Source of the DNA: Microgenomates group bacterium
GTDB lineage: Bacteria > Patescibacteriota > Microgenomatia > UBA12405
Length of the DNA stretch: 64,000 nucleotides
Reading direction: 5' to 3'
Assembly: GCA_049303675.1 (NCBI GenBank)
Contig: JBAQNJ010000001.1
Coordinates: 7,494-71,493 of the forward strand
Shown: in pieces, positions 1,628 to 58,737 of the stretch
Position numbering within the stretch: the stretch's first letter is position 1
Layout: every line of letters begins with the position of its first letter
Made by a program: the position numbers and the translations under genes
Notes under the pieces: generated by a model
What the model was told of the DNA's origin: nothing
The model's database searches: none
The model's input: only the letters and a program-made list of their open reading frames with translations

Positions 1628-1642
1628 CCTACTTCATATTTA

Positions 1643-2119: not shown

Positions 2120-2130
2120 ATTCTTATTTT

Positions 2131-2158
2131 GTAGAGACGTTGCATGCAACGTCTCTAC
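2131..2158. repeat. REP-like 28-bp perfect palindrome GTAGAGACG-TTGCATGCAA-CGTCTCTAC
   Basis: Intergenic between the nrdJ stop and the pduO-like start. Confidence 0.8.
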
Positions 2159-10613: not shown

Positions 10614-10624
10614 CTATTCAATTT

Positions 10625-10652
10625 GTAGAGACGCCATATATGGCGTCTCTAC
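10625..10652. repeat. REP-like 28-bp perfect palindrome GTAGAGACG-N10-CGTCTCTAC
   Basis: gtagagacgccatatatggcgtctctac. The arms are identical to the copies at 2131-2158 and 3643-3670. Confidence 0.8.
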
Positions 10653-18424: not shown

Positions 18425-19459
18425 TTATTTGAAGTGCGTCCCGAAAAAGCCCAAGTCAGCCGCTACCGCCTCATTCCATCCGCCTTTTAGGTTGTGATCT
18501 GCGCCTTCATACACCACTAGTTCTGCCCCAATCGCCCTAGCTACCGGCCGCTGCCATTCTAGTTTTACTTGATTATCTCTATTCCCTTGCTGAATCAATA
18601 CTGGCGCCTTGATCCAATCATAATAATTTTCAAAAGCATAGCGCCGACTGTCATAATGTTTTTGGAATTCCTCTATCACTGCCTTGACCGGACTACCCTC
18701 GTCAATTGTTGACAATACACTCTCCGGAAACGGTTGAGTCATCGGCGCCCACAAAACCGTCGGATAAGACTGCCCCGTAATTTCTAGTACCGACAAAGCA
18801 ATTTGACCCCCATTACTATGTGCCCAAATACCAATCCTATTTTTATCCACCCAAGGCAGTTGTTTAACTGACTCAATCAGATCAAGTACTTCCACTACTT
18901 TATGAAACCGTGCCTCCAACATATCACTTGATTCTGTATCAGAATGTCCATATCCCAAAAAATCCAGACTAATAGTGACATAATTTGGTTTACCCGCCGA
19001 CTGGCGGGCCAACTCATCTGCCACCTTCCAACTCCCCGACCCTACATAATATCCCTCTTTTTCGGCATACCCCCGAATCATGATGATTACTGGTACGAAC
19101 ACGCCATGGCGTGTTCCTACATCTTTTGGCATATTTATCATCCCACTCACCCATTTACCATCACTTTTAAATCTAATTTCTCTGGTTGTAAAGTCGTATT
19201 CTATTGTCCTTCTATCTTCCACTTCGGGAATATTCCCTAAAATTTCCAACTTTCTACTTTCAACTTTATGAACCTGCCTGCCGGCAGGCATGGCTTTATG
19301 AACTCGGCGAAGCTCATCAAAATCATATTTTTCTAAAAAAAAATTATTATTTATTTCTTTTTGTTTTCCTATGGGATTTATTATATTTCTCGGCCAAAAA
19401 TAAAACAGACAACCACCAAACAAAATCAAAAAAAATATTATGCCAATTTTCCTTACCAC
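18425..19459 (-). CDS. membrane-anchored alpha/beta hydrolase (S9/dienelactone-hydrolase-like)
   Basis: N-terminal TM, GIWAHSNGG nucleophile elbow, later D and H (GADHNL). Carries an in-frame 30-bp palindromic insertion (AMPAGRQVHK). Confidence 0.75.
   Translation of the reverse strand: MVRKIGIIFFLILFGGCLFYFWPRNIINPIGKQKEINNNFFLEKYDFDELRRVHKAMPAGRQVHKVESRKLEILGNIPEVEDRRTIEYDFTTREIRFKSDGKWVSGMINMPKDVGTRHGVFVPVIIMIRGYAEKEGYYVGSGSWKVADELARQSAGKPNYVTISLDFLGYGHSDTESSDMLEARFHKVVEVLDLIESVKQLPWVDKNRIGIWAHSNGGQIALSVLEITGQSYPTVLWAPMTQPFPESVLSTIDEGSPVKAVIEEFQKHYDSRRYAFENYYDWIKAPVLIQQGNRDNQVKLEWQRPVARAIGAELVVYEGADHNLKGGWNEAVAADLGFFGTHFK
19264..19303. repeat. GC-rich palindromic mini-element (CTGCCTGCCGGCAGGCATGG) with a 10-bp target-site duplication, inside a CDS
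   Basis: ctttatgaac | ctgcctgccggcaggcatgg | ctttatgaac. 30 nt = 10 codons, in-frame. The protein shows RVHK-AMPAGRQVHK-VES. Confidence 0.8.
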
Positions 19460-20334: not shown

Positions 20335-20399
20335 TCTTCTTTTTCTTTTTTTTCTGTTATACTATCCCTTGTCCTACCGAAGACAGCCGGTTTTCTAGA

Positions 20400-20509
20400 A
20401 ATAGAATATAATTCCTGCCGAGGAACAAATTAGATTTTCTAAATCTACGCCTCGTTCTTCGAGGCTTTTTTATTTTACTTTATAAACTTTCAACTTTACA
20501 AACTAACGT
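20400..20509 (+). promoter_or_regulatory. putative L10 (rplJ) leader with attenuator hairpin
   Basis: Hairpins ttcctgccgaggaa and acgcctcgttcttcgaggc followed by TTTTTTATTTT end 33 nt before the rplJ ATG. The position matches the known L10(L12)4 autoregulatory leader. Confidence 0.5.
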
Positions 20510-21569: not shown

Positions 21570-22100
21570 TTAAAACCCCTCCGGTCCCGCATCTGCGGGA
21601 CCACCTCCCCTTGACGAAGGGGAGCTTTTCAATAAAATCTCTCTTTCTCTAACCACGCTTTCTAATCTATTTCTGACATTATCCAAACCACTCATCAACT
21701 CCCTGCTATTTATTCTAATTGTTAATATATTCAAAATATCAAAATATTTATCTCTCTCATTGTCATAATATTTGTTTCTCAAATGATAGCCTCCGTCAAC
21801 TTCAACAATTAGGAGTAGCTCTGAGCAGTAAAAATCAGCTATAAACTTTCCTATTGGTTTTTGTCTAGTAAATTTGTAACCCAGCCTTCGGTTGTTTAAT
21901 ATTTCATACCACAAAATATTTTCTGTTTTTGTCGAATTAACACGACCTTTTCTAGCTAGGTTTCTCAACGTATCAAGATATTTTAAGTTTTGTCTAGCAG
22001 TCAATGCTTCCACTGGTACTAAATGTTTCACTACGTTATAGTGTTCTGTATTGTCCCCCTTCGTCAAGGGGGATACAGGGGGTTTGTTATAATCCACCAT
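21570..22100 (-). CDS. DUF559 (Vsr-like endonuclease fold) domain protein
   Basis: ...ENILWYEILNNRRLGYKFTRQKPIGKFIADFYCSELLLIVEVDGGYH... is characteristic of DUF559. Both ORF ends run through GC-rich hairpin repeats. Confidence 0.7.
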   Translation of the reverse strand: MVDYNKPPVSPLTKGDNTEHYNVVKHLVPVEALTARQNLKYLDTLRNLARKGRVNSTKTENILWYEILNNRRLGYKFTRQKPIGKFIADFYCSELLLIVEVDGGYHLRNKYYDNERDKYFDILNILTIRINSRELMSGLDNVRNRLESVVREREILLKSSPSSRGGGPADAGPEGF

Positions 22101-23913: not shown

Positions 23914-24933
23914 TTATATTTTTTTGCAAAAGCTATTTATATTCTCAATCGTCGTGCCAATAATTCTTCCAATCGCTTCTTGAGTATTAAATGCATTGTG
24001 AGGCGTAAATACCACATCATCCCGATCACGCAGCAAATGATAGGTCAACACTTCCTGCAAATCATCTTTAGTTGGCCGAGTACTCGACACCATCGCCACG
24101 CTCTCCAACAAGTCTTCATCCTCGGTCACATCTAGTCCCGCCCCCCATAAAATTTTGTTGCTTAGAGCCCATATAATCGCCTCAGTCTTCACCACCTTGC
24201 CTCGTGAGGTGTTGACAAGTATCGACCCTCTTTTCATCAGCCTAATATTCTTGAGATTAATCATATGCCGTGTCTCGGGTATAGCTGGGACATGCAATGT
24301 TACAAAATCTGACTGGGCTAGACATTCTTCCAGAGTCACATACTTAAAGCCCATTTTTTTGGCCAGTTTTTCGTCCCGACTTCTTTCCACTGCTAATATT
24401 TTTAGACCCAGTCCCTTGGCTATCCGAATTACATTTTGACCAATTTTACCCACTCCCACTACTCCCAAAGTCTTACCAAATATATCAAGTCCAGTTAATC
24501 CTTCAGGACTGAACTCCCCTTCTTCTACCGACTGATGTGCCGGCACAATTCTCTTGGCTACTGTCAACAGCATAGCTATAGCATACTCAGCCACCGTATT
24601 TGACCCATATGTGGGCACATTCATCACTTCTATTTTTCTTTTCTTACATTCTTCCACATCAATGTGATCCACCCCAGTCGACCGAGTGGCAATCATTTTT
24701 AAATTTGGTAATTTATCCAATATCTTTTTATCCAAATGAGAATAGACAAATACCGACACTATGTCATAATTGTTGGCCAAATCCATATCTTCGTGTAATT
24801 CTTTTTCAAAAATTCCCACCCCCACTGTATCCAAATTAATTATTTGCTCTTCAATTATTTTCCTCTCCCACGACTTCACCCCAAAAAAAGCTATTTTCAT
24901 AACTAATATTAGCACCCTTGTGGCTATACCCAT
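23914..24933 (-). CDS. D-isomer-specific 2-hydroxyacid dehydrogenase (NAD-binding)
   Basis: GVVGVGKIGQNVIRIAKGLGLKILAV Rossmann GxGxxG. Catalytic R/E/H region. Confidence 0.85.
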   Translation of the reverse strand: MGIATRVLILVMKIAFFGVKSWERKIIEEQIINLDTVGVGIFEKELHEDMDLANNYDIVSVFVYSHLDKKILDKLPNLKMIATRSTGVDHIDVEECKKRKIEVMNVPTYGSNTVAEYAIAMLLTVAKRIVPAHQSVEEGEFSPEGLTGLDIFGKTLGVVGVGKIGQNVIRIAKGLGLKILAVERSRDEKLAKKMGFKYVTLEECLAQSDFVTLHVPAIPETRHMINLKNIRLMKRGSILVNTSRGKVVKTEAIIWALSNKILWGAGLDVTEDEDLLESVAMVSSTRPTKDDLQEVLTYHLLRDRDDVVFTPHNAFNTQEAIGRIIGTTIENINSFCKKI

Positions 24934-25190
24934 CTCTCTCCAATACTATCGGCTGCTCTACCAAAATGTTTTACGGCTCTCCATGCAGGAATAACCGCCA
25001 AAGGGAAAAACACTATTCCCACCACCGTCGCTACAGCCATGCACTGTACACCTCTAATAATTTCTATCACCGGATCTTGATCTAAACTAATTCTTTGTCC
25101 TCGACGTGTTTCATCAGATTTCATCACATTTACTTCTCTCATATGTTTTATTCGAGTCATCAATAAAAATCCGGCTCGGTCGGTTACCAA
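24924..25190 (-). CDS. questionable small membrane ORF
   Basis: 88 aa with one hydrophobic segment. Overlaps the dehydrogenase start. Confidence 0.2.
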   Translation of the reverse strand: MVTDRAGFLLMTRIKHMREVNVMKSDETRRGQRISLDQDPVIEIIRGVQCMAVATVVGIVFFPLAVIPAWRAVKHFGRAADSIGERWV

Positions 25191-25266
25191 TTGGTCTACG
25201 ACTGGCCGGTTATAATTCTCTTCGATAACTCTCAGAGTAAGGCGTTGTTGTCTAAATCCTATAATA

Positions 25267-25518
25267 TCACAAACTATTTATTTTTGCAAATATCTCTTCT
25301 TTGTTCTCTTCTACAAATATTTGTTCTTGGGACAACATTTTCCCCCACTCCACTATTTGATCATCGCTCATTTTATCAATTACTGCCAATATCTTATTTT
25401 TAGAATCATCATCCAAAATATAACTACTATTTATCAAAATAATTAAAGCTTCTTTTTTATCCATATTAATTATCTGTAAATACTTTAACTGCCTCGACCA
25501 CTTGCTGCTGTCTTTCAA
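25267..25518 (-). CDS. hypothetical small acidic protein (83 aa)
   Basis: Intact ORF overlapping the upstream gene by 50 nt (operon-like). Confidence 0.35.
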   Translation of the reverse strand: MKDSSKWSRQLKYLQIINMDKKEALIILINSSYILDDDSKNKILAVIDKMSDDQIVEWGKMLSQEQIFVEENKEEIFAKINSL

Positions 25519-25990
25519 CTGGCTTACTAAAAAATTGCTCTCTAATTGCCTCTATTCCCACCTTTGCCAACCTAAATCCCTTGGTTGGAGTATTCCATAA
25601 CGTATCTATTTCAAATTGGGCCGCATCCATCAATATGGATACAGGTGTAAATCCCACCCCCGCCATATTGCAAACATCCACTATCGCATCGGGAATATTT
25701 GGATGTAATTCTAACTTTTCATTCACAATTTTTTCACCTATTATTGCTGCTCCGCTTTTTACTATTTCCGCCAATTTGTTTCCAGGAAAAAATTTTGCCG
25801 TAATAATTCCTACTAGTGCCAGTTCTCTCCCTGCCACCTTGACATAATCTTTTAACTGTTCACTTTCTACCACTGTCCTTCCAACATTACGCATTTTTTC
25901 CCACAACGTCCGTCCCACTGCCTCCGCAACCAAATCTTCAGAAACAACAATTTTTTCTTTTGCCTGTTCTTCATCAAAACTCATTTCCAA
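25466..25990 (-). CDS. hypothetical protein (174 aa)
   Basis: Intact ORF, no motifs. Confidence 0.45.
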   Translation of the reverse strand: MEMSFDEEQAKEKIVVSEDLVAEAVGRTLWEKMRNVGRTVVESEQLKDYVKVAGRELALVGIITAKFFPGNKLAEIVKSGAAIIGEKIVNEKLELHPNIPDAIVDVCNMAGVGFTPVSILMDAAQFEIDTLWNTPTKGFRLAKVGIEAIREQFFSKPVERQQQVVEAVKVFTDN

Positions 25991-26007
25991 TCATAACATA
26001 TTCACTA

Positions 26008-26122
26008 TTGACAAATTTAATGTCCTATAGTATAATAACAACAATTCTAACAACGCCTTACTCTGAGAGTTATCGAAGAGAATTATAACCGGCCAAGAAG
26101 TCATCTTGAGGCCGGTTTTTTG
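26008..26122 (+). ncRNA. candidate small RNA (approx. 80 nt) with consensus sigma-70 promoter and intrinsic terminator
   Basis: TTGACA(26008)-17 nt-TATAAT(26031), then approx. 45 nt, then aaccggcc-N15-ggccggtt stem and TTTTTT (26087-26122). No ORF. Confidence 0.45.
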
Positions 26123-26267
26123 ATGCAAAAAATTACCCTCAAGCCTTCTTTGACAATTTGGTAACAGGGAAAAAGTTGGCTACAACAAATAGGCAATCGC
26201 TGTCTATGGGTTTCTTGGTGCCAGCAATTCCCTGCTACGACTAAGGCAGATATAAAAAGGAGAAAAA

Positions 26268-26579
26268 ATGTTTAAGAATATTGTACGTTACTGTGGCGGA
26301 TTGCTAATTTTTACCTTCGGAATGATAATGTATACAATTTTTCTGGACATCAATATGCCAGAACCTATGTTACATTTTTTACTTCGTTTGGTTGTCGCTT
26401 TTTCCGCCTGCTGGATAATCATTAGACCAGCATTTGCTGTAGTTGGAATGCCATTTATGGTTCCTCTCGTTGGAGTACTATCACTACCCAACCACGAATA
26501 TGAACCTTGTAGCATTCCTATCGTGATCGCTTGTACATTCTGTCTAGCTTTGCTCTATGTAATAGTCAATAAAAAATAA
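26268..26579 (+). CDS. small multi-TM membrane protein (103 aa)
   Basis: Three hydrophobic spans. Flanked by inverted repeats gctacgactaaggcaga (26234-26250) and tctgccttagtcgctagc (26584-26601). Confidence 0.5.
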   Translation: MFKNIVRYCGGLLIFTFGMIMYTIFLDINMPEPMLHFLLRLVVAFSACWIIIRPAFAVVGMPFMVPLVGVLSLPNHEYEPCSIPIVIACTFCLALLYVIVNKK

Positions 26580-26674
26580 TTTCTCTGCCTTAGTCGCTAG
26601 CCAAATCGGACCTGCGTGGTAGAAGTGATGATTCATTTCATCATTTTTACCCTCAGGTCCGTGCAAGTTTAAAT

Positions 26675-27664
26675 TTAACGTTTGGCAAATTTTGTTTTTA
26701 CTGCCCATGCTGTCCACGATTTTTCCAAAAATATTCCGTGAGATTCATTCAAGTAGCCGGCCGCTGCACTCTTGGCACGTTCAGTTATTTTAGAACCGTC
26801 CCCAAAGATACCACTCTCTCCTGTCACTGTTGTAGCACCTATTTCCGTCAACAAATAAGCCATTTGTTTCTCAGGGGAGTCCAGACCTTCCTCACTTAGT
26901 TGAGGACTTATTCTTTCAAATCCATCCATCATCTTGTCCAACATATTCAAGGGCAATTTCTCATCTTTATACTTCACGGCCAAGGAAGCAAAGAATGATG
27001 GCAACCATCGGTAACACTCAGGCTCTCCCAAATACTTCGGAAAGTCGAGCGGGATTTCATCTAATGATTCCTTATCATAAATGTCCACTAATAACTTTAT
27101 CTTCTCTAAATCACCATCTTGTTCATTCCACACAGCAATTAGCTCAGAAAAGATTCTCAAGTTAGGATCATTCACATCAATTTTGTTTTTTGCGCAATAA
27201 TTTTTCAAGGCAATATGAGAATATTCATGTCGACACTTCCTTCTAAAGATTTCCCATTTATCGACACCCTCATTCTCGCTCTCGACTTCTAACGCGGCCA
27301 TGTTAATTAAAACCACCCCATCGGTGACTAACTTGTCACTTTCCAATCTATTGATACTTGCTGAAGCACAGGCCATGCCTATGTTTTCCTGTTCTCCATT
27401 CACAATCACCACACCGATATTTCCTAAATTGATATTTTCCAATCCAAAAAAGTTCGCCACATTCTGTCGCTCCACTTCTACAATACTTGATGTTTCTGCC
27501 CATCTAGACTCTTCAACTCCACAACTATTGTGGAATATGACCGGATTTTCTTCATCGCCCACATAACGCGAATCTTTGATTACTTGATTAATTTTGTCGT
27601 CAAACTGCAACTTCTCTACCGAAACTGATTTCGCATCGAGCTTACCCATCCCCCATTCTAACAT
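26675..27664 (-). CDS. hypothetical protein with HExxH (zinc-metallopeptidase-like) motif
   Basis: ...KCRHEYSHIALKNY... 329 aa, no signal peptide. Confidence 0.45.
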   Translation of the reverse strand: MLEWGMGKLDAKSVSVEKLQFDDKINQVIKDSRYVGDEENPVIFHNSCGVEESRWAETSSIVEVERQNVANFFGLENINLGNIGVVIVNGEQENIGMACASASINRLESDKLVTDGVVLINMAALEVESENEGVDKWEIFRRKCRHEYSHIALKNYCAKNKIDVNDPNLRIFSELIAVWNEQDGDLEKIKLLVDIYDKESLDEIPLDFPKYLGEPECYRWLPSFFASLAVKYKDEKLPLNMLDKMMDGFERISPQLSEEGLDSPEKQMAYLLTEIGATTVTGESGIFGDGSKITERAKSAAAGYLNESHGIFLEKSWTAWAVKTKFAKR

Positions 27665-27706
27665 TTACCCAATTCAAAATATCTTTTTTCCCATCTTCCC
27701 CTTATT

Positions 27707-27741
27707 CTGTTAACTGTTGACTGTAAACTGTTAACTGACAT
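27707..27741. repeat. tandem heptamer array (CTGTTAA/CTGTTGA/CTGTAAA/CTGTTAA/CTGACAT)
   Basis: In the divergent intergenic region between the HExxH gene and the excisionase-type HTH gene. Confidence 0.7.
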
Positions 27742-27768
27742 ATTGACCTAGTAGTATGCTCTATGTTT

Positions 27769-27790
27769 TAATGATTATAGTTAATCATTA
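27769..27790. promoter_or_regulatory. 22-bp perfect palindrome (TAATGATTA-tagt-TAATCATTA), probable operator
   Basis: 25 bp upstream of the HTH gene start. Confidence 0.5.
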
Positions 27791-27814
27791 CATTGATACT
27801 AGAGGAGCCACCCC

Positions 27815-28072
27815 ATGGACGAACAAACCCTATCACAAGACAAACTTGTGAAACAAAATCCTGCTCCAAAAAAAATTAACGGAGTCAGTATCGACAATCT
27901 CCCCGACCTCCTAACCGTCGCCGAGGTCGCCGACCTACTTCGCGTATCAAAATTGACCATCAAGCGTTGGGGTAAGCGCGGCAAACTACCCGCCATTCGC
28001 ATCAACGCCCGCGGTGATCGCCGATACCGCAAAGAAGCCGTTCTCTGGCTACTGGGAATTCAAACCGAATAA
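27815..28072 (+). CDS. excisionase/MerR-type helix-turn-helix DNA-binding protein
   Basis: ...LLTVAEVADLLRVSKLTIKRWGKRGKLPAIRINARGDRRYRKEAV... matches the Xis/HTH_17 pattern. Confidence 0.7.
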   Translation: MDEQTLSQDKLVKQNPAPKKINGVSIDNLPDLLTVAEVADLLRVSKLTIKRWGKRGKLPAIRINARGDRRYRKEAVLWLLGIQTE

Positions 28073-28129
28073 GAGACTTCTTTTACCTTCTAAGGGGTCA
28101 GTTTAATCGCTGGCTCCTTTTTTGGATAT

Positions 28130-28402
28130 TTACAATGTTTTTAATCCATCAAACAACACCTTTTTCATCAATGCTTGATATGAAATATCAATCAGATTTG
28201 CTTTTACTTTATAATCCTCTACCAACCCCACCGGCAATCTGATTGTCATCGGCTTTGAAGTTAATTTTAGATTTGGAAATTTGGCTCCCCTTTTTGCCAT
28301 TGACCAGTCAACATAATCAACTGAACTATGAGTCATCCAAAATTTAGATTCCTCGTTTTCATTCTTAAATTTTGGAATTAGTTTTAATGCTTTATTTTTC
28401 AT
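28130..28402 (-). CDS. BrnA-like antitoxin (COG3514), no adjacent BrnT
   Basis: ...ESKFWMTHSSVDYVDW...KPMTIRLPVGLVEDYKVKANLIDISYQALMKKVL... parallels BrnA (FWDTHD...tiRLd...giPYQtLI). Confidence 0.55.
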   Translation of the reverse strand: MKNKALKLIPKFKNENEESKFWMTHSSVDYVDWSMAKRGAKFPNLKLTSKPMTIRLPVGLVEDYKVKANLIDISYQALMKKVLFDGLKTL

Positions 28403-28465
28403 ATAAATTTCTCTCCTTATTGTTCGCCATTCTGGCTGAAATAATTATAACTTTATTTTGTCAAG

Positions 28466-28804
28466 TTATAAAAACCTCGCCAAAATAATCATCGAACTCA
28501 GTGCCATCCCAATTCCCACATACTCCGTTACCGACAATTTTTCTCCAAACATAAATACCCCCATAAATACAAATACCACCATTCCTAATATTGAATAAAC
28601 CACTCCCGACAACGAAAACTTGGTCATCCGATAAATCATCACCCACATATATGCCGTCATCATATACATCACCAGTCCGATATAAAAATCTACGTTCATA
28701 AATCTGGCAGCATGATCATTCGCCTTTTTTAAAAACGAATCCCCCACCACTGTAAACAATGTCGTCGCCATAATTGCTATCAGTACCCTAAAACTATGCA
28801 TCAC
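28466..28804 (-). CDS. 4-TM EamA/SMR-like small membrane transporter (DMT superfamily, ArnE-like)
   Basis: 112 aa, four hydrophobic helices, TTLFTVVGDSFLKKA first-helix motif. Confidence 0.55.
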   Translation of the reverse strand: MMHSFRVLIAIMATTLFTVVGDSFLKKANDHAARFMNVDFYIGLVMYMMTAYMWVMIYRMTKFSLSGVVYSILGMVVFVFMGVFMFGEKLSVTEYVGIGMALSSMIILARFL

Positions 28805-28820
28805 CTATCTTACACTACAA

Positions 28821-29087
28821 TTATTTCAGAAAATACATTATCACCATTCCTACCAAAATCCCCAAAACAAACATCGACATTCCATTACCATTCTTGTTTT
28901 CAATTCCTGCTGACCCAAAACTTGTCTCCAAACTTTCGGTCTTCTTCTCGCTTACTGAATTTGAAATATCAGACAATTGGCCCATCGCTTGGTCATAAGA
29001 TTGTCTCGTCTGCACATCCATTTCTTCAACCGAGCCATAAGACTTCCCGTTTACTGTAATATTTGTCGTCGATTTGGTTATTTTCAT
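28821..29087 (-). CDS. hypothetical small protein with C-terminal TM
   Basis: 88 aa, intact ORF. Confidence 0.35.
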   Translation of the reverse strand: MKITKSTTNITVNGKSYGSVEEMDVQTRQSYDQAMGQLSDISNSVSEKKTESLETSFGSAGIENKNGNGMSMFVLGILVGMVIMYFLK

Positions 29088-29094
29088 AAGATTA

Positions 29095-30069
29095 TTATAC
29101 CGTCACCCTCCCCCGACTTGTTCTCTTCACCAACCCCTTTTTCATCAAATAAGGTTCATATACATCCATAATTGTCTCTACATCTTCTGTCAGCGCCGCC
29201 GCAATATTTTCCACCCCCACTGGTCCGCCCCCATATTGATTTTTGACCACATCCAAATACCTCCTATCTGCATCCGATAAACCCAGCTCATCTACCCCCA
29301 ATTTTTCCAGTGCCTCCTTTGATTCCTGCCATTTAATCACTCCGTCTCCGGCTACCGTTGCATAATCCCTTACCCTCTTGAGCAGTCGGTTGGCAATTCT
29401 GGGTGTACCTCGCGACCGCTTGGCAATTTCTCGTGCTGCCAATGTCTCTATCCCTACTCCCAAAACTTTGGCTGTCCGCTCCACAATATTTTTCAAATTT
29501 TCCTCATCATAAAAATCAATTTGTTGAATTAGCCCAAACCGATCTCTCATCGGCGCTCCAATTAATCCAATCCGAGTGGTCGCCCCCACAATTGTAAATT
29601 TTTGCAATTTCAGTCTAACCGACCGTGCCGATGGCCCCTTGCCCAAGACAATATCCAAAGCATAATCCTCCATCGCACTATAGAGTGTCTCCTCCACAAT
29701 TTTATTGAGTCGATGAATTTCATCGATAAACAAAAAATCTCCCTTTTTCAAGCTAGTCAATATTGAGGCAAGGTCCCCTGCCCGAGTCAATGCCGGCCCT
29801 GATGTAATTTTGATATTCGATCCCATTTCTGAGGACAACAGCATCGCCAAAGTCGTCTTACCCAAACCAGGCGGCCCATAAAACAATATATGATCCAATG
29901 GCTCCCCTCGTGATTTAGCTGCTCGAATAAACACATCCAACTGATCCTTCAACTTTGGCTGACCAATAAACTCACTCAATCCTTTGGGTCGAATCGACAA
30001 TTCAATCTCCTTGTCTTCAACTTTTTTTGTGGGATCCAAATTATTATCTATATTTTTTGTATTATTCAT
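29095..30069 (-). CDS. ruvB: Holliday junction branch-migration ATPase RuvB
   Basis: [12 protein letters not shown]..., [11 protein letters not shown] Walker A, AAA+ body. Confidence 0.95.
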
Positions 30070-30702: not shown

Positions 30703-31179
30703 CTAAATCTTCATAGTAAACCCATGGGTCAGCGCCACCGCTACTGCATCCGCTGCATGCGAAGGTGAGATACTTTGATCTAAATTCAACTCAGTCCGAA
30801 CCATTATTTCCACCTGCTCTTTCTCAGCTCTGCCATACCCCACCAATGCTTGCTTCACTTGAAGCGGAGTATATTCTGCCACTTCTAGTCCGTTTTTCTG
30901 ACCACATACCTTAATTACTCCAATCGCCTCCGCCACCTTCATTACCGACCTGGCATTTTTGGCAAAAAACAATGTCTCGATAGCCATTTCTGTTACCCCG
31001 AACTTTTTTATAATAATTTCCAATTCATCATAAATTTTACCCAATCTATCAGCGCTTTTATCTTTACTGTCAGTCACAATCACCCCACAATCTATCAATT
31101 CGTAATTCGTAATTTTTAATTCGTAATTAATTATCCCCCACCCAGTGTTTTCTAGTCCCGGATCAATGCCTAAAATCAT
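30703..31179 (-). CDS. ruvC: crossover junction endodeoxyribonuclease RuvC
   Basis: MILGIDPGLENTGWGI catalytic Asp N-terminus. Contains an in-frame NYELKITNYEL duplication encoded by AATTCGTAATT repeats. Confidence 0.9.
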   Translation of the reverse strand: MILGIDPGLENTGWGIINYELKITNYELIDCGVIVTDSKDKSADRLGKIYDELEIIIKKFGVTEMAIETLFFAKNARSVMKVAEAIGVIKVCGQKNGLEVAEYTPLQVKQALVGYGRAEKEQVEIMVRTELNLDQSISPSHAADAVAVALTHGFTMKI

Positions 31180-31212
31180 TTTTTCGTAATTCGTAATTTT
31201 TAATTCGTAATT
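31097..31212. repeat. clusters of AATTCGTAATT tandem motifs (one inside the ruvC 5' coding region, one in the ruvC upstream spacer)
   Basis: caattcgtaattcgtaatttttaattcgtaatta (31097-31130) and ttcgtaattcgtaatttttaattcgtaatta (31184-31212). Confidence 0.8.
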
Positions 31213-32116: not shown

Positions 32117-32155
32117 ATAATTCGTAATTAGTAATTCATAATTCGTAATTAAGTT
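32117..32155. repeat. AATTCGTAATT motif cluster upstream of murB
   Basis: ataattcgtaattagtaattcataattcgtaattaag. A TATAAT lies immediately before the murB ATG. Confidence 0.8.
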
Positions 32156-33455: not shown

Positions 33456-34261
33456 TTTCCAAATAATACCATAAACATAAATTTTAGTAATTCGAATTTT
33501 CTTTTTCTTCTCCCCTTGTCAGTAAACAACGAATACAACCACTCTAACCCCATTTTTTGCATCCACCTTGGCGCTCGGGGCAATTCTCCCGAATAATAAT
33601 CAAACGTCCGTCCCAATCCAATCACCAATTCAACCCTGAGCTTGTCAAAATGGTCATTTATCCATAGTTCTTGTTTTTTCATGGCCCGACAGACAAACAA
33701 AAAATCAACACTTGTCTCGAAATCATAGTCTTCTGCCTGTGCCCCCACCACCTTTAACTTTGGATATTTTCTTAAAAAATATTCTGCTGTCCGCTGTGAT
33801 CTGTCGTCCCAACCTCCATAAAAGAAAACTGTCTTCCCTTTGGCCTGCGCCAACCGACACAAGTCATCTACTAGATCTACTCCGGTAATCACCTCATCAC
33901 CATATTTCCCCATCAACACTTTTACTCCCTCGCTAAAACCCACCATCAACTTTTTGACTTTTGACTTTTGACTTTTGACTTTCTTCGCCCATGCTAAACC
34001 AATTCCATCCACCACATTTATAGTAGTTCTATTTTGTAAAATTTTCATAAACTCCACATCCTTACGAGCATTCATCACAAATTCTGGATTTACCGTCGCT
34101 ATCCACACCGGAGTCTTTAGCTTATCCTTTGCCAAAATATCTAGCAGTAAGACCCTTGTTCTGCCAAATAGCGGAACACCACATATTTCCCAGTCCTTTA
34201 GCCCAAAATTACCTATCACTCTATCATTTTCTCGGCTACTTTTCTTTGGTTCTTGTATCAT
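33452..34261 (-). CDS. WecG/TagA/CpsF-family glycosyltransferase
   Basis: ...TVFFYGGWDDRSQRTAEYFLRKYPKLKVVGA... core typical of this family. Contains a (TTTTGAC)x4 heptamer microsatellite in-frame. Confidence 0.75.
   Translation of the reverse strand: MIQEPKKSSRENDRVIGNFGLKDWEICGVPLFGRTRVLLLDILAKDKLKTPVWIATVNPEFVMNARKDVEFMKILQNRTTINVVDGIGLAWAKKVKSQKSKVKKLMVGFSEGVKVLMGKYGDEVITGVDLVDDLCRLAQAKGKTVFFYGGWDDRSQRTAEYFLRKYPKLKVVGAQAEDYDFETSVDFLFVCRAMKKQELWINDHFDKLRVELVIGLGRTFDYYSGELPRAPRWMQKMGLEWLYSLFTDKGRRKRKFELLKFMFMVLFGK
33956..33983. repeat. (TTTTGAC)x4 heptanucleotide microsatellite inside a CDS
   Basis: ttttgacttttgacttttgacttttgac encodes KSKVKSQKS on the minus strand. Confidence 0.85.
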
Positions 34262-34557: not shown

Positions 34558-34588
34558 TCGTAATTCGTAATTAGTAATTCGTAATTTT
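34558..34588. repeat. AATTCGTAATT motif cluster
   Basis: agtcgtaattcgtaattagtaattcgtaatt in the spacer between the mreB stop and the tagA-like gene's upstream region. Confidence 0.8.
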
Positions 34589-37248: not shown

Positions 37249-37744
37249 ATATTCAGTCTAGAATGAATTTATGGTTTGTCAAGACAATAATAATCCGGTA
37301 AAAATAATAAATTAGACCTCTAACATTAATTTACTCATCTGAACCTAATTCAGTTTATAGTTTCTACATCCCCATCCTAATAATAACAACTAATTAAGAT
37401 TGTCCGCTTTCATTCAGTTTATATCACTAATAAAATAATTAGCAGTCAACAAACATATCTGCCAAATCCTATCCACAAAATGTTAACATTTGAATATCAA
37501 TTTATACTTTACTGGTACTTTGTATAGAGTAATACAACAATAACAAAACATCCTATAACCAAAATAATCCTCAAATTCATAATCAAGGTATAATAAATAG
37601 ATAAAGTCAATTCGGGCTGTGCCACGTCATAGCCCGAAGGGCGAAGACGGGGACCTGCCTGCCGGCAGGCAGGTTGGCGCAATTTCAGCCATAGGCTGAT
37701 CGGCCTCTGGCCGAGGCTAGCGCAATATAAATAAGCCTAAACAT

Positions 37745-37911: not shown

Positions 37912-37988
37912 GTTTACAGAAAACAGTTAACTGTCAACAGATAAAAATAATCTCTGACAACTGTTTACTGTCAACTGTCAACTATTTA

Positions 37989-38487: not shown

Positions 38488-40956
38488 TTAGTTTGCCAAA
38501 ATCACAAAATTTACCATCCTCCCTTCCACATAGATCTCCTTGCTAATTGTCTTGTCCGCCAGCCAAACCTTCATCTTCTCCGTCTCCTTTGCTAGTTGTA
38601 GAATATTCCTCTTGTCTGTCAACTGTTCACTGTTAACTATTAACTCATCTCTCACCTTGCCGTTAATCGATATCATAATCTTCACCTGATCATCAACAAG
38701 GTATTTTGGGTCCACCACCGGCCATGATTGCTGATGCACTGAATCAATGTGGCCCAATCGGCTCCACATCTCCTCAGCCATATACGGAGCCATAGGCGCA
38801 ATTAATTTAATTAAAGTCTCTACATCATTAACTCGTAACTGATAACTGGTAACTGATAACTCATTCAAAGCTCCCATCAGTTTTGCCACCACAGTATTAT
38901 AACCAAACACCTCCAAATCCCTAGTCACCCCATCAATTAGCTTGTTTATTATCACTTTGACATCACTGTTGCTAGCATTACTTGTATTAATTTGCTCAGA
39001 AATATATTTTTCAAACCTATCTAAAAACCTCTTTACTCCCATTAAAGTATTTTCACTCCATGCCATCGTCCCAGTAAACGGTCCCATAAACATCAAATAC
39101 ATTCGCACTACATCAACTCCATATTTATCAGCTACTACCTCGGGTACTATTACGTTCCCCTTAGTCTTACTCATCCGCTGATTATCTGGGCCGAGTATCA
39201 CTCCATGAGACATTCTCATATAGTATGGCTCAGTTAACTCCTCTGGAAAAATATGAAGATCATATAAGAATTGATATATGAACCTAGAATAGAGTAAGTG
39301 AAGCGTGTTGTGTTCATCTCCACCAATGTATACATCTACCGGTCCCCAATATTTTAATATATCAGAATCTACCAATTTACTATTATTATGTGGATCCATA
39401 TACCTCAAAAAATACCAATCTGATCCAGCCCAATTTGGCATTGTGTCCGTCTCTCTTTTGGCAGGTCCTCCGCACTTGGGACAAGTGCAATTAACAAATT
39501 CGGGTATACGACTCAGTGGACTCAGCCCATCATCAGTCGGTTCATAAGCCTCTACCTCAGGTAACACTATTGGCAAGTTTTCTTCTTTTTCCGGCACCCA
39601 ACCCTGCCCGCCGTGGCGGGCACAACTCTCACAGTAAACCATTGGAATAGGCTCACCCCAATAATGCTGTCGACTAAATATCCAATCTCTCAAATGATAT
39701 TCTACTTTTCTTGTTGCCCACTTATTTTCCACCATCCAATCACTGATGGCCTTATATGCTTCATCTCTTGCCCTCATTCCACTAAATTGTTCTGAATTTA
39801 TCATCACCCCATCCTCAATTACTTTTTCATAGCTATCTATAACATAATTAGGTTTATCTTTTGGGACTTCAACCTGAATCATTTCTAGTCCATATTTTTT
39901 GGCAAACATAAAATCACGACTATCGTGTGGTGCTACACCCATGACCGCACCTGTCCCAAAATTTGCCAATACATAATCTCCCACCCAAACAGGAATTTTT
40001 TTATTATTAACCGGATTAATTACATAACTTCCCGTAAATACCCCAGTTTTTTCTGATGTCCCCGAAGTTCGATCCATTTCACTTTTCTTCTGTGATTCTT
40101 TGATATACTCATCAACTATTTGTCTGTTTTCTTCAGTAACCAAACAATCTAACTCAGGATACTCTGGTGAAACTACTACCCAACTAGTTCCAAATATAGT
40201 TTCCGGATATTTTGTAAAACAACTTATCTTTGTATTATTACCATCAACTACAAAATCAATTATCAAACCCTCTTTTCTCCCAATCCAATTAATTTGTGCC
40301 TGTTTGACCTTGTCAATAAAATTTGTTTCTTTTAACCCGTCAATCAACCTATCGGCATAATCGGTAATCTTGACTACCCATTGTGATATATTTCTCCTCG
40401 ACACTTCACTACCACACCGCTCACATTTATTATCGATAACCTCTTCATTGGCTAAGCCAATTTTACAGCTCGGGCACCAGTTAATCGGCATTTCTTTTTT
40501 ATATGCCAAGCCAGCCTTAAACAACTTTACAAAAATCCATTGCGTCCATTTGTAATAGTTTGGATCAGTGGTATCGACCTCACGGCTCCAATCATAAGAA
40601 AAAGCCAATCGATCCATTTGTGACCTAAACATATCAGTGTTTTCTTTTGTCACCACTTGTGGTTTTTTCTTCATTTTTATTGCAAAATTTTCGGTCGGCA
40701 ATCCAAAAGCATCCCAACCCATGGGAAATAATACGTTATACCCTTGCATCCGTTTAAACCGAGCAAACACATCTCCACCCGTAAACGAAAAGGCATGACC
40801 CACATGCAACCCCGATCCCGACGGATAGGGAAACTCGTTTAAAATATATTTTTTAGGTTTTACCTGCCCGGCAACGGCCGGGTCATCCGCCCTATACAAT
40901 TCTGGATGTTCACTCCAAAATTTTTGCCACTTGGCTTCAATCTCCTTAAAATCCAT
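38488..40956 (-). CDS. leuS: leucine--tRNA ligase
   Basis: ...FPYPSGSGLHVGHAFSFTGGDVFARFKRMQGYNVLFPMGWDAFGLPTEN... HIGH region, KMSKT (RMSKTKGN). 822 aa. Contains in-frame repeat insertions. Confidence 0.95.
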   Translation of the reverse strand: MDFKEIEAKWQKFWSEHPELYRADDPAVAGQVKPKKYILNEFPYPSGSGLHVGHAFSFTGGDVFARFKRMQGYNVLFPMGWDAFGLPTENFAIKMKKKPQVVTKENTDMFRSQMDRLAFSYDWSREVDTTDPNYYKWTQWIFVKLFKAGLAYKKEMPINWCPSCKIGLANEEVIDNKCERCGSEVSRRNISQWVVKITDYADRLIDGLKETNFIDKVKQAQINWIGRKEGLIIDFVVDGNNTKISCFTKYPETIFGTSWVVVSPEYPELDCLVTEENRQIVDEYIKESQKKSEMDRTSGTSEKTGVFTGSYVINPVNNKKIPVWVGDYVLANFGTGAVMGVAPHDSRDFMFAKKYGLEMIQVEVPKDKPNYVIDSYEKVIEDGVMINSEQFSGMRARDEAYKAISDWMVENKWATRKVEYHLRDWIFSRQHYWGEPIPMVYCESCARHGGQGWVPEKEENLPIVLPEVEAYEPTDDGLSPLSRIPEFVNCTCPKCGGPAKRETDTMPNWAGSDWYFLRYMDPHNNSKLVDSDILKYWGPVDVYIGGDEHNTLHLLYSRFIYQFLYDLHIFPEELTEPYYMRMSHGVILGPDNQRMSKTKGNVIVPEVVADKYGVDVVRMYLMFMGPFTGTMAWSENTLMGVKRFLDRFEKYISEQINTSNASNSDVKVIINKLIDGVTRDLEVFGYNTVVAKLMGALNELSVTSYQLRVNDVETLIKLIAPMAPYMAEEMWSRLGHIDSVHQQSWPVVDPKYLVDDQVKIMISINGKVRDELIVNSEQLTDKRNILQLAKETEKMKVWLADKTISKEIYVEGRMVNFVILAN

Positions 40957-58706: not shown

Positions 58707-58737
58707 ATCTCAATATAACACAAACACAACCTATTTC

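What the first reader, a model, noticed from the sequence alone, without database searches (positions are those of the whole stretch)
25190..29094. Accessory islet between the 2-hydroxyacid dehydrogenase gene and ruvB
Seen in sequence: the region contains the following.
- two overlapping small genes
- a promoter/terminator-defined sRNA candidate
- an inverted-repeat-flanked membrane ORF
- a 329-aa HExxH protein
- a divergent control region with a tandem heptamer array plus a 22-bp perfect palindrome
- an excisionase-type HTH gene
- a BrnA-like antitoxin with no BrnT
- a 4-TM SMR-like gene

Inference: Xis-like HTH plus orphan antitoxin plus metalloprotease-like protein is typical content of degraded mobile elements or defence islands. 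No integrase or att site was recognised, so the element may be a remnant. Alternatively, the HExxH protein could be the partner of the HTH regulator, as in ImmA/IrrE-type metalloprotease-repressor pairs.
Basis: partly seen in the sequence, partly recalled or inferred. Interest (0 to 1): 0.6.

Follow-up and report, generated by a model that had tools for sequence, protein, structure and literature searches.

The report
Gene-turnover hotspot around conserved BldC-like gene
The segment is not one decayed mobile element but two strain-specific cargo patches on either side of a highly conserved small DNA-binding gene next to the ruvCAB repair genes of an uncultured ultra-small (CPR) bacterium; the cargo includes a decayed toxin-antitoxin pair, a rare new zinc-protease-like family that keeps turning up beside this same gene, and an odd small-RNA/inverted-repeat cassette.

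Summary
Most listed features are really there, with corrections. The window comes from a Microgenomates/Shapirobacteria-like CPR genome. About 30 related loci share the backbone 2-hydroxyacid dehydrogenase | 85-aa HTH | ruvB-ruvA-ruvC. The 'excisionase-type' HTH is a core gene, 83-100% identical across these loci, with conserved promoter and terminator. It is BldC-like, not an islet Xis.

Both spacers flanking it are variable. They are empty in most relatives and filled with unrelated ORFans in others; the closest relative (RuvB 93%) carries entirely different cargo. No integrase, transposase or att site was found.

- **Patch A (28128-29094):** brnA plus a 27-codon brnT stump. Intact brnTA sits at this site in two relatives. 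The rest of brnT is replaced by a weak SMR/DMT-like gene and a tail-anchored ORF.
- **Patch B (24901-27735):** holds the HExxH protein. Its family has only 7 clusters among 1.84 billion representatives, no Pfam/NCBIfam/PDB match and a generic zincin fold. Four of six readable contexts lie beside this HTH and one lies after ruvC.
a perfect 47-nt inverted repeat brackets the two small genes. One arm is the body of the sRNA candidate.
- **Heptamer array:** one of 21 such arrays in the window, not a specific operator.

Interest is moderate.

The parts
24924..25160 (-). p78: small ORF with one hydrophobic segment, lying between the cassette and the dehydrogenase start (24900). Part of variable patch B.
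   Evidence: NCBI call of 78 aa. Codon score 0.33 bits/codon. No homologue in any related locus.
25160..25209 (-). Terminator-like hairpin plus U-run downstream of p65. Its 5' stem half (CCGGCC) is the outer end of the left repeat arm.
   Evidence: Fold (-24.7 kcal/mol, z = -2.5).
25203..25249 (-). Left arm of the perfect 47-nt inverted repeat. On the minus strand it reads AACAACGCC...CCGGCCA and forms the 3'UTR of the p172-p65 operon.
   Evidence: 2 copies in the window, 0 expected by chance.
25267..25464 (-). p65: 65-aa acidic ORFan and second gene of the cassette. It starts 1 nt after the p172 stop.
   Evidence: No hit in any family or PDB search.
25466..25984 (-). p172: all-helical ORFan and first gene of the cassette.
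   Evidence: Only itself found among 5.8 billion proteins by word search. No family hits apart from a borderline PADLOC JukA hit at E 0.0014. The single-sequence AF2 model is unusable (pLDDT 40).
26008..26036 (+). Perfect sigma-70 consensus promoter TTGACA-N17-TATAAT. It sits just inside the right arm and reads outward.
   Evidence: 12 of 12 matches. It is the only such site in 64 kb.
26043..26122 (+). Candidate sRNA of about 80 nt. It contains the right arm of the 47-nt repeat (26049-26095) followed by a strong intrinsic terminator (26087-26122).
   Evidence: No Rfam family. No convincing local target.
26234..26601 (+). p103 cassette: a 103-aa ORF with four hydrophobic segments (26268-26579) and an AAGGAG ribosome-binding site. 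It is closed by a 17-bp (13 perfect) 5'-3' stem at 26234-26250 / 26584-26601. NCBI instead calls a 75-aa ORF on the minus strand (26288-26515).
   Evidence: Local loss of the negative GC skew favours a plus-strand gene or non-coding DNA.
26675..27664 (-). HExxH protein of 329 aa (NCBI start gives 324 aa). It belongs to a rare CPR-restricted zincin-like family. Invariant residues are E147, H150, F172-S173-E174, E181 and W317/W320.
27707..27737 (.). Tandem heptamer array CTGTTAA x4.4, a member of a genome-wide class of period-7 arrays. It lies in the non-conserved part of the spacer.
   Evidence: L083 carries TGTAATT x4 at the same position.
27743..27814 (+). Conserved promoter and leader of the HTH gene: -35 TTGACC at 27743-27748, extended -10 TGtTTTAAT at 27764-27772, the 9+4+9 interrupted palindrome at 27769-27790, and a GAGGAG ribosome-binding site.
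   Evidence: Conserved in about 30 loci. Palindrome.
27815..28072 (+). Core 85-aa BldC-like/HTH_17 DNA-binding protein. It is the anchor of the locus and is not cargo.
   Evidence: Pfam HTH_17 43 bits and TIGR01764 38 bits. PDB BldC entries 6amk/6ama at E 1e-8. 83-100% identical in about 30 syntenic loci.
28092..28119 (+). Conserved intrinsic terminator of the HTH gene. In relatives with an empty spacer it abuts the ruvB stop codon.
28130..28402 (-). brnA (CopG-type antitoxin). It is 58-66% identical to the brnA of intact brnTA pairs found at the same site in L095 and L098.
   Evidence: PF12441 76 bits.
28395..28475 (-). brnT 3' stump of 27 codons with an in-frame stop at its 5' edge. The remainder of brnT has been replaced.
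   Evidence: tblastn with L095 BrnT gives 59% over 27 aa, E 3e-6. Translation, DNA alignment. BrnT identity of the references is confirmed by PF04365 at 78-79 bits.
28466..28804 (-). 112-aa small membrane protein with four hydrophobic segments. It shows weak SMR/DMT (EamA, ArnE) likeness. Its last codons run into the brnT stump.
   Evidence: all hits below curated cut-offs. Codon score 0.42. No relative in related loci.
28821..29087 (-). p88b: 88-aa ORFan with a C-terminal hydrophobic anchor. It starts 7 nt after the ruvB stop and is probably co-transcribed with ruvB.
   Evidence: No family hits.

Best explanation
The region is an integrase-free gene-turnover hotspot, not a single element.

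In Shapirobacteria-like CPR genomes the core order is ruvC-ruvA-ruvB | BldC-like HTH (opposite strand) | 2-hydroxyacid dehydrogenase. The two short spacers flanking the HTH gene, and also the ruvC/ruvA/ruvB junctions in some relatives, repeatedly gain and lose lineage-specific genes. The most likely route is homologous recombination through the very conserved flanking core genes; this is inferred, not shown.

In this genome:
- **Patch A.** It began as a brnT-brnA toxin-antitoxin module downstream of ruvB. The first ~70 codons of brnT were later replaced by two small membrane-protein genes, leaving brnA and a brnT stump.
- **Patch B, protease.** It carries a cytoplasmic zincin-type (HExxH...E) metalloprotease-like protein from a rare, fast-evolving family that recurs beside this same HTH/ruv locus. 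My working model, which is inferred, is that it is an accessory protease acting on, or controlled with, the BldC-like DNA-binding protein or the ruv neighbourhood. That is an ImmA/IrrE-like logic without ImmA/IrrE ancestry.
- **Patch B, cassettes.** It also carries two small cassettes, each closed by a long inverted repeat. The 47-nt repeat most likely acts at the RNA level. The same 47-nt module would be made twice, once as an ~80-nt sRNA from a consensus promoter and once as the 3' end of the p172-p65 mRNA.
For: **Hotspot**
- The backbone was found in about 30 loci.
- The dehydrogenase-HTH spacer is 126-250 nt in about 20 of them. It is 2.9 kb here, 2.3 kb in L003, 1.2 kb in L083 and 0.7 kb in L109.
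- The HTH-ruvB spacer is 9-130 nt in about 12 loci and 0.3-3.6 kb in about 14 (ORFs).
- Cargo families are almost all singletons without Pfam domains.
- L115, the closest relative (RuvB 93%, HTH 100%), carries unrelated 435-aa and 206-aa genes.
- Conservation is sharply bounded to the HTH promoter, gene and terminator and to the dehydrogenase ATG.

**brnTA decay**

**HExxH family**
- Exhaustive HMMER finds 7 clusters.
- The HExxH, FSE and E motifs are conserved.
- The AF2 model has pLDDT 82 and pTM 0.84, with the motifs on consecutive helices.
- The best fold matches are all zincin peptidases or YbeY.
- Contexts are: window and L083-87 divergent from the HTH; L088 and L171 convergent with it; L089 directly after ruvC; L082 before a 5'-3' exonuclease.
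- It is 39% identical to the L083 copy, while the neighbours are 68-94% identical.

**sRNA and inverted repeat**
Against: - No direct evidence exists for the recombination route. No donor sequences were found.
- Native-like codon usage fits old residents or in-situ gene birth as well as it fits transfer.
- The protease-HTH link could be a by-product of both genes sitting in the same hotspot within one clade. None of the 80 metagenome HTH loci carries the family. Three empty-spacer relatives keep the HTH without it. One family member (L171) is interrupted and has lost the first His.
- Fold matches are weak (best E 0.035 against PDB and 1e-3 against BFVD).
- The HExxH family alignment used for the model has only 7 sequences.
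- For the RNA model, no transcript data exist, no target was found, and no clear minus-strand promoter lies upstream of the right arm.
Confidence: 0.62

Rival explanations
1. Degraded mobile element or defence island. A single integrated element carrying Xis, an antitoxin and a protease has lost its integrase and att sites.
For: - The cargo is variably present.
- A toxin-antitoxin remnant is present.
- The HTH passes the excisionase-domain model TIGR01764.
- DUF559/Vsr-like endonuclease genes occur in the same spacer in L099, L111 and L112.
Against: - The HTH is core. It is syntenic and 83-100% identical in about 30 loci, with or without cargo, and it splits the 'islet' into two independently variable patches.
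- No integrase, transposase or att-like direct repeats were found here or in the cargo of relatives.
- PADLOC gives no significant defence hit apart from the HTH domain itself (mad1) and a borderline JukA hit.
- There is no phage or plasmid similarity.
- Codon usage is native-like.
Confidence: 0.1
2. The 25203-26095 cassette is an invertible DNA switch (inverton). Site-specific recombination between the 47-bp arms would flip the segment. The consensus promoter would then fire either towards the p103 ORF or towards p78 and the dehydrogenase.
For: - The arms are perfectly identical, as expected if recombination homogenises them.
- A consensus promoter lies just inside one arm and reads outward.
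- An independent Logan assembly breaks exactly 30 nt (k-1) into the right arm. This shows the repeat is real in the reads.
Against: - No invertase or recombinase domain occurs in any islet ORF.
- Terminators sit outside both arms, so in either orientation the promoter would mainly yield the same short RNA.
- Only one orientation is on record, and no read-level data are available.
Confidence: 0.12
3. The cassette is a small non-autonomous transposable or foldback element with 47-bp terminal inverted repeats that carries two passenger genes.
For: - The terminal inverted repeats are long and perfect.
- The whole 1.8-kb stretch between the HExxH gene and the dehydrogenase is absent from L083, where those two genes abut.
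- A second IR-closed cassette lies next to it.
Against: - There is no target-site duplication at the arm ends (sequence).
- The window holds a single copy, and a 22-mer of the arm has no match in the metagenome or viral collections.
- No transposase-like protein is present.
- p172 and p65 have host-like codon usage.
Confidence: 0.08
4. The HExxH protein has nothing to do with the HTH or with ruv. It is simply a fast-evolving, clade-specific peptidase-like gene that was inherited vertically in a rearrangement-prone neighbourhood.
For: - All contexts come from related CPR lineages that share the murB-ruvC-ruvA-ruvB-HTH neighbourhood.
- Most HTH loci lack the gene.
- One member lies elsewhere, in L082.
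Against: - The gene keeps its adjacency to the HTH in two different arrangements: divergent upstream, and convergent between ruvB and the HTH.
- Its start overlaps the ruvB stop in L088 and lies 1 nt after the ruvC stop in L089. This suggests co-transcription with repair genes.
- The L171 copy sits beside a more diverged HTH.
Confidence: 0.3

Closest known systems
Integrase-free chromosomal hotspots of accessory genes bounded by core genes. The concept is from my own knowledge (Oliveira et al. 2017, Nat Commun). Genomic islands in Patescibacteria are reported in PMC12455944.
   Same: Conserved flanking core genes surround highly variable cargo made mostly of ORFans, and different strains carry different content at the same site. 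PMC12455944 reports hundreds of genomic islands in 125 Patescibacteria genomes.
   Different: The scale is very small, with two spacers of 1-3 kb. The spacers are centred on a single 85-aa regulator gene. There are no tRNA, integrase or phage signatures, and codon usage is native-like.
ImmA/ImmR and IrrE/DdrO metalloprotease-repressor pairs (COG2856, Peptidase_M78)
   Same: An HExxH protease with a downstream Glu is encoded next to a small HTH DNA-binding protein, in a DNA-repair neighbourhood.
   Different: No M78 match was found. The fold hits are generic zincins. The HTH is MerR/BldC-like rather than XRE/cI-like. The genes are divergent or convergent, not co-directional. The HTH is core, and it occurs without the protease at this locus in most related loci (the rest of those genomes was not searched).
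BldC of Streptomyces (PDB 6AMA/6AMK; PMC5859096)
   Same: Both are small MerR-like winged-HTH proteins without a dimerisation or effector domain. The sequence match is E 1e-8 over 54 residues. [quoted passage not shown]
   Different: The score is below the NCBIfam BldC cut-off (44 against 77 bits). It has an extra variable 25-residue N-terminal tail. BldC binds 9-bp AATTxxxxC direct repeats, whereas the nearby array here has a 7-bp period and belongs to a genome-wide class.
BrnT/BrnA type II toxin-antitoxin system
   Same: brnA passes PF12441. Intact brnT-brnA pairs occupy the same site in L095 and L098.
   Different: Here brnT is reduced to a 27-codon stump with a stop codon, so the module is a remnant.
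Invertons (phase-variable invertible promoters), and 3'UTR-derived or sibling sRNAs
   Same: Inverted repeats flank a segment that holds an outward-reading promoter. The same RNA module is present as a stand-alone gene and at an mRNA 3' end.
   Different: No recombinase and no orientation polymorphism are known. Terminators lie outside both arms. No target or expression data exist.

Membership tests
ImmA/IrrE (COG2856, Pfam Peptidase_M78 PF06114) | Sequence match to the M78 profile | tested here: not met
   No Pfam or NCBIfam hit for the window protein. None of the 7 family members hits M78 even at E up to 10.
ImmA/IrrE (COG2856, Pfam Peptidase_M78 PF06114) | HExxH plus a downstream Glu as the metal site | tested here: met
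   HEYSH lies at 146-150, and invariant E174 lies 24 residues after H150 on the next helix. Metal binding itself cannot be tested here.
ImmA/IrrE (COG2856, Pfam Peptidase_M78 PF06114) | Adjacent XRE/cI-type HTH repressor that is its substrate | tested here: not met
   The adjacent HTH is HTH_17/MerR/BldC-like and is divergent or convergent. Cleavage cannot be tested.
Zincin (gluzincin-type) metallopeptidase fold | Mixed beta-sheet plus an active-site helix carrying HExxH, followed by a helix carrying the third ligand, with structural similarity to known zincins | tested here: inconclusive
   The model (pLDDT 82) has strands 80-121 followed by helices 136-159 and 167-181 that carry the motifs. 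The top Foldseek hits are collagenase M9, M1 aminopeptidases, lethal factor, YbeY and phage peptidases, but E is never below 1e-3.
Excisionase / recombination directionality factor | HTH_17 / TIGR01764 excisionase-type domain | tested here: met
   PF12728 scores 43 bits (cut-off 27). TIGR01764 scores 38.1 bits (cut-off 28.8).
Excisionase / recombination directionality factor | Belongs to an element with a cognate integrase and att sites, and is present or absent together with it | tested here: not met
   No integrase domain occurs in any islet ORF. The gene is present in all ~30 backbone loci, with or without cargo, and has its own conserved promoter and terminator.
BldC family (NCBIfam NF033787) | Score above the curated family cut-off | tested here: not met
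   44 bits against a cut-off of 77. However, the match to the BldC structures 6amk/6ama is E 1e-8.
BldC family (NCBIfam NF033787) | Stand-alone MerR-like wHTH without a coiled-coil or effector domain | tested here: met
   The protein is 85 aa. Only the N-terminal HTH part of the MerR profiles is matched, at residues 32-83.
BldC family (NCBIfam NF033787) | Head-to-tail binding to 9-bp direct repeats | not testable with these tools
   The binding mode is taken from PMC5859096. The local array has a 7-bp period.
BrnTA type II toxin-antitoxin | BrnA antitoxin (PF12441) | tested here: met
   76.2 bits against a cut-off of 28. NCBIfam BrnA_antitoxin_add scores only 30 against 60.
BrnTA type II toxin-antitoxin | Intact BrnT toxin gene directly upstream | tested here: not met
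   Only codons ~70-96 remain, at 28395-28475, preceded by a stop. No other BrnT-like sequence occurs in the 64-kb window. The rest of the genome was not searched.
SMR (Pfam Multi_Drug_Res PF00893) | Score above the gathering cut-off | tested here: not met
   20.1 bits against 23.7. EamA scores 20.1 against 28.2. All NCBIfam SMR models score far below their cut-offs.
Inverton | Inverted repeats flanking a promoter-bearing segment | tested here: met
   Perfect 47-nt arms. Promoter at 26008-26036 inside the segment, reading outward.
Inverton | Cognate invertase, and both orientations present in the population | tested here: inconclusive
   No recombinase domain occurs among the islet ORFs. Orientation polymorphism needs raw reads, which these tools do not provide.
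IS/MITE-like TIR element | Target-site duplication, multiple copies and a transposase | tested here: not met
   The flanks CTACGAC and AGAAGTC are not a duplication. There is a single copy in the window. Metagenome and viral scans gave no hit. No transposase domain was found.

The most novel reading that the evidence does not exclude
The rare HExxH family may be a dedicated zinc protease. It would act on the ultra-conserved BldC-like DNA-binding protein encoded next to ruvCAB, or be controlled together with it. That would give some CPR bacteria, which have few known regulators, an ImmA/IrrE-like damage- or stress-triggered protease-regulator switch built from unrelated parts.

A second reading that is also not excluded concerns the two IR-closed cassettes: the 47-bp and 17-bp stems around p172-p65 and p103. 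They may represent an undescribed way of packaging or mobilising small gene cassettes.
Probability: 0.15. Interest if true: 0.65.

Novelty: new variant of a known kind. Interest (0 to 1): 0.4.

Why it matters
CPR/Patescibacteria make up a large share of bacterial diversity, yet their regulators and their routes of gene gain are poorly known.

- **A place to study gene turnover.** This locus is compact and easy to recognise. Turnover can be followed across many metagenomes because the anchor gene is almost invariant.
- **A candidate for experiment.** The anchor is a BldC-like protein under extreme purifying selection next to the Holliday-junction resolvase genes.
- **A testable hypothesis.** This suggests a protease/DNA-binding-protein pair that could be tested.
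- **A caution for annotation.** 'Excisionase' and 'orphan antitoxin' labels do not by themselves indicate a mobile element.

Tried and rejected
- **Rfam.** Gathering thresholds on the whole window and permissive E-values on the islet found nothing for the sRNA or the inverted repeats.
- **Word-index protein search** of the HExxH protein and of p172 returned only self-hits. A profile search with the family alignment returned only two members.
- **PDB sequence searches** were uninformative for the HExxH profile, p172, p65, the SMR-like protein and BrnA.
- **AF2 on p172** without an alignment gave pLDDT 40, so no fold search was run.
- **L003 523-aa HELYH protein.** It is not a detectable member of the HExxH family (BLASTP E 1.9; hhalign probability 0.1).
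- **Arm 22-mer** was not found in the metagenome or viral collections.
- **Phage and plasmid searches.** blastn of the islet against phages and plasmids, and tblastn of HExxH and p172 against phages, found nothing.
- **sRNA target scans** against 63 translation-start regions and the neighbouring mRNAs produced no outlier.
- **14-nt inverted repeat around the SMR-like ORF** (28436-28449 / 28816-28829). I rejected it as probably chance, because its left arm lies in ancestral brnT coding sequence that is conserved in L095.
- **Heptamer array as a specific operator.** I rejected this because 21 such arrays are scattered through the window, inside and outside genes.
- **Assembly artefact for the 47-nt repeat.** I consider this unlikely. 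An independent Logan contig stops exactly k-1 = 30 nt into the arm, and two large contigs carry p172 and p65.

Full report
**Source and gene map**

The HExxH protein and p172 are identical to hypothetical proteins WAV41_02610 and WAV41_02620 of a 'Microgenomates group bacterium' MAG. They sit on a 998-kb contig, GCA_049287145.1.

Between ruvB (29095-30069, minus strand) and the 2-hydroxyacid dehydrogenase the ORFs are as follows:

| Name | Coordinates | Strand |
|---|---|---|
| p88b | 28821-29087 | - |
| 112-aa membrane protein | 28466-28804 | - |
| brnA | 28130-28402 | - |
| 85-aa HTH | 27815-28072 | + |
| 329-aa HExxH protein | 26675-27664 | - |
| 103-aa hydrophobic ORF (or a 75-aa ORF, 26288-26515, -) | 26268-26579 | + |
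| p172 | 25466-25984 | - |
| p65 | 25267-25464 | - |
| p78 | 24924-25160 | - |

The dehydrogenase occupies 23914-24900 on the minus strand. Its true start was fixed by alignment with relatives.

**Checking the observations**

Pfam and NCBIfam confirm three domain assignments.
- The HTH is HTH_17/excisionase-type.
- BrnA passes PF12441 at 76 bits.
- The 112-aa protein gives only sub-threshold SMR/EamA hits.

No library (Pfam, NCBIfam, PHROGs, PADLOC) recognises HExxH, p172, p65, p103, p78 or p88b.

The promoter at 26008-26036 is a 12/12 consensus and the only one in the 64-kb window. A strong hairpin and U-run follow it.

The heptamer array is real. The '22-bp perfect palindrome' is two perfect 9-nt arms with a non-palindromic 4-nt centre. 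The two small genes do not overlap if the second starts at its ATG.

A perfect 47-nt inverted repeat (25203-25249 / 26049-26095) brackets p172-p65. It is unique in the window, with 0 expected by chance.

Because the arms are inverted and the flanking transcription is divergent, both arms are read in the same RNA sense. One copy is the body of the ~80-nt sRNA candidate. The other is the 3'UTR of the p172-p65 operon.

Identity ends inside the 5' half (AACCGGCC) of two different terminator hairpins.

The next cassette, p103, is closed by a 13-nt perfect inverted repeat that extends to a 17-bp stem. The motif is unique in the window and the fold z-score is -3.75. Of 68 ORFs tested in the window, no other has a bracketing repeat longer than 8 nt, apart from the SMR-like ORF. 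That exception is probably chance, because one of its arms is ancestral brnT coding sequence.

**Comparative genomics**

I used RuvB as a probe in species-representative genomes and the HTH protein as a probe in metagenomes. About 30 loci share the backbone dehydrogenase(-) | HTH(+) | ruvB(-) ruvA ruvC.

The HTH protein is 83-100% identical across loci whose RuvB is 72-93% identical. Residues 19-85 are almost invariant.

Three stretches around it are conserved at the DNA level in all loci:
- its promoter (TTGACC-N15-TGtTTTAAT);
- its leader, which includes the interrupted palindrome;
- its terminator.

Conservation stops abruptly at about 27736 on one side. On the other side it stops after the terminator T-run at 28127. 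In L002, L004 and L005 both spacers are empty, and the terminator abuts the ruvB stop codon.

Spacer lengths:

| Spacer | Empty state | Filled state |
|---|---|---|
| dehydrogenase-HTH | 126-250 nt in about 20 loci | 2.9 kb here; 2.3 kb in L003; 1.2 kb in L083; 0.7 kb in L109 |
| HTH-ruvB | 9-130 nt in about a dozen loci | 0.3-3.6 kb in about 14 loci |

Cargo differs between loci. An all-against-all comparison finds only a few recurrent families (HExxH, BrnA, BrnT, a DUF559 endonuclease-like family); everything else is a singleton. Twenty cargo proteins from relatives contain no integrase or transposase domain.

The closest relative, L115 (RuvB 93%), has two unrelated genes where the window has brnA, the SMR-like gene and p88b. 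The ruvC-ruvA and ruvA-ruvB junctions are also variable in some loci.

So the 'islet' is two independent cargo patches around a core gene, inside a wider plasticity zone.

**Patch A**

L095 and L098 carry intact brnT-brnA pairs (BrnT PF04365 at 78-79 bits) at exactly this site, downstream of ruvB and convergent with the HTH.

The window keeps brnA, at 58-66% identity to those copies. It also keeps the last 27 codons of brnT at 28395-28475 (59% identity, E 3e-6). An in-frame stop precedes this stump.

The SMR-like gene ends inside the stump. The antitoxin is therefore orphaned by replacement of the toxin gene, not by distant relocation.

**The HExxH family**

An exhaustive HMMER scan of 1.84 billion cluster representatives finds only seven clusters. 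One is the window protein itself. One is 39% identical over the full length. Five are 30-33% identical over parts.

Conserved residues:
- E147, H150, F172-S173-E174, E181, P209, L221-P222, F224, W317 and W320 are invariant.
- H146 is replaced by Asn only in one copy, L171, whose gene is interrupted by a stop.

AlphaFold2 with the 7-sequence alignment gives pLDDT 82 and pTM 0.84. The model has a beta-sheet followed by helices 136-159 (carrying HExxH) and 167-181 (carrying E174 and E181).

Foldseek hits are weak. In the PDB, most of the top hits are zincins or YbeY: collagenase T/G, M1 aminopeptidases, lethal factor and IMPa. Among viral models the top hits are M34-like and other putative peptidases. 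No member hits Peptidase_M78. One member hits SprT-like at E 0.07.

I therefore treat it as a new family with a zincin-type active site, probably a cytoplasmic metalloprotease. This is inferred.

Genomic contexts of the family:

| Locus | Arrangement |
|---|---|
| window, L083-87 | divergent from the HTH, just upstream of the dehydrogenase |
| L088 | start overlaps the ruvB stop, convergent with the HTH |
| L171 | convergent with a more diverged HTH |
| L089 | starts 1 nt after the ruvC stop |
| L082 | upstream of a 5'-3' exonuclease |
| P0007 | no DNA available |

Thus four of six readable contexts touch the HTH and five of six touch DNA-repair genes. Against this, none of the 80 metagenome HTH loci has the family. 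The window and L083 copies are only 39% identical, while their neighbours are 68-94% identical.

The association is real. It could reflect function, or shared residence in a hotspot within one clade.

**The HTH**

Its best structural relatives by sequence are the BldC structures 6AMK and 6AMA, at E 1e-8. BldC is a stand-alone MerR-like wHTH. It binds 9-bp direct repeats head-to-tail, and BldC-like proteins are said to be widespread in bacteria (PMC5859096).

The window protein does not reach the NCBIfam BldC cut-off, so I call it BldC-like rather than a BldC family member.

It is not an excisionase of this islet. There is no integrase, and it is present regardless of cargo.

**Heptamer arrays**

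TRF finds 21 period-7 arrays of three or more copies in the window, typically about 4.4 copies. Twenty shuffles gave a mean of 0.25. The arrays lie both between genes and inside genes. Similar arrays are enriched in other CPR loci.

L083 has a TGTAATT x4 array at the same position upstream of the HTH -35 element. The array is therefore a member of a genome-wide class and is not evidence for a dedicated operator.

**Origin of the cargo**

Codon usage of p172, p65, p78, HExxH, brnA, the SMR-like gene and p88b is 0.33-0.48 bits/codon. That is within or above the range of the window's long genes.

There is no DNA or protein similarity to phage or plasmid records. A 22-mer from the 47-nt arm is absent from the metagenome and viral collections.

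This fits old, lineage-specific cargo exchanged among close relatives, or genes born in place. It does not fit recent capture from a known mobile element.

**Mechanism and verdict**

| Claim | Basis | Confidence |
|---|---|---|
| Integrase-free turnover hotspot flanking a core BldC-like gene | shown | high |
| brnTA decay | shown | high |
| HExxH is a zincin-type protease | sequence and model | moderate |
| HExxH is functionally tied to the HTH/ruv locus | inferred | about 0.3 |
| The 47-nt module acts as RNA, made both as an sRNA and as an mRNA 3' end | inferred | about 0.4 |

For the 47-nt module the rivals are an inverton or a foldback/TIR element. The data in hand cannot separate them.

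Nothing in it clearly breaks known categories, so interest is moderate (0.4). Genomic islands are already documented in Patescibacteria (PMC12455944).

Noticed in passing
window, 21 sites, e.g. 27707-27737, 31097-31128, 31183-31212, 32118-32150, 33952-33982, 34558-34586, 37954-37983, 38616-38645, 55088-55121, 63799-63829: Period-7 tandem arrays of about 4-5 copies (~30 nt) are a genome-wide feature. There are 21 in 64 kb, against a mean of 0.25 in shuffles. Unit sequences differ between arrays. They lie both between genes and inside ORFs, where three units make a 7-aa repeat: the array inside ruvC encodes INYELKITNYELI, which is absent from the L002 RuvC. They are enriched in other CPR loci (1.3-2.4 per 10 kb; L052 has 18 in 21 kb) compared with non-CPR loci (0.38 per 10 kb). 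From my own knowledge they resemble cyanobacterial STRR heptanucleotide repeats. I found no paper describing them in CPR.
   Followed up: partly
window 27815-28072 and about 30 related loci (L002-L005, L083-L116): The 85-aa BldC-like HTH protein is nearly invariant over residues 19-85 in species whose RuvB is only 72-93% identical. It always sits between ruvB and the 2-hydroxyacid dehydrogenase gene. More than 460 relatives turned up in the metagenome scan. It looks like a core regulator or nucleoid-type protein of this CPR clade.
   Followed up: partly
window 2127-2158, 3639-3670, 10621-10652; also 19271-19290 and 37656-37675: REP-like palindromic hairpins recur in the window. GTAGAGACG-loop-CGTCTCTAC occurs three times with different loops. 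The 20-nt palindrome-containing motif AACCTGCCTGCCGGCAGGCA occurs twice, 18 kb apart.
   Followed up: no
window 58732-58799 and 59733-59800: A 68-nt direct repeat at 87% identity, 1 kb apart. It lies directly before ORF 58801-59739 and again directly after it, ahead of ORF 59960-60619. It may be a duplicated regulatory or leader region.
   Followed up: no
window 21570-22100 (-); L099 4911-5402, L111 3855-4247, L112 261-698: DUF559 (Vsr/restriction-endonuclease-like) genes recur as cargo in this plasticity zone. They sit in the HTH-ruvB spacer of three relatives. In the window one sits between the NTP-transferase gene and the L7/L12 gene.
   Followed up: partly
L083 3281-6189; L111 5216-5917 and 6491-7948; L091, L092, L099 ruvA-ruvC spacers: The junctions between ruvC, ruvA and ruvB also carry variable cargo in relatives. 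L083 has seven small genes between ruvC and ruvA. A 205-453-aa family without Pfam domains recurs between ruvA and ruvC in four loci.
   Followed up: partly
window 1579-1654 (-) and 20359-20480 (+): Rfam gathering-level matches to an AdoCbl-II riboswitch and to the ribosomal protein L10 leader. They are unrelated to the finding.
   Followed up: no
L001 (Logan contig SRR28062879_59327), end at window 26066: An independent assembly of the same sequence breaks exactly 30 nt (k-1) into the right arm of the 47-nt repeat. This is expected for a true repeat longer than k. It means short-read assemblies cannot report the orientation of the cassette.
   Followed up: yes
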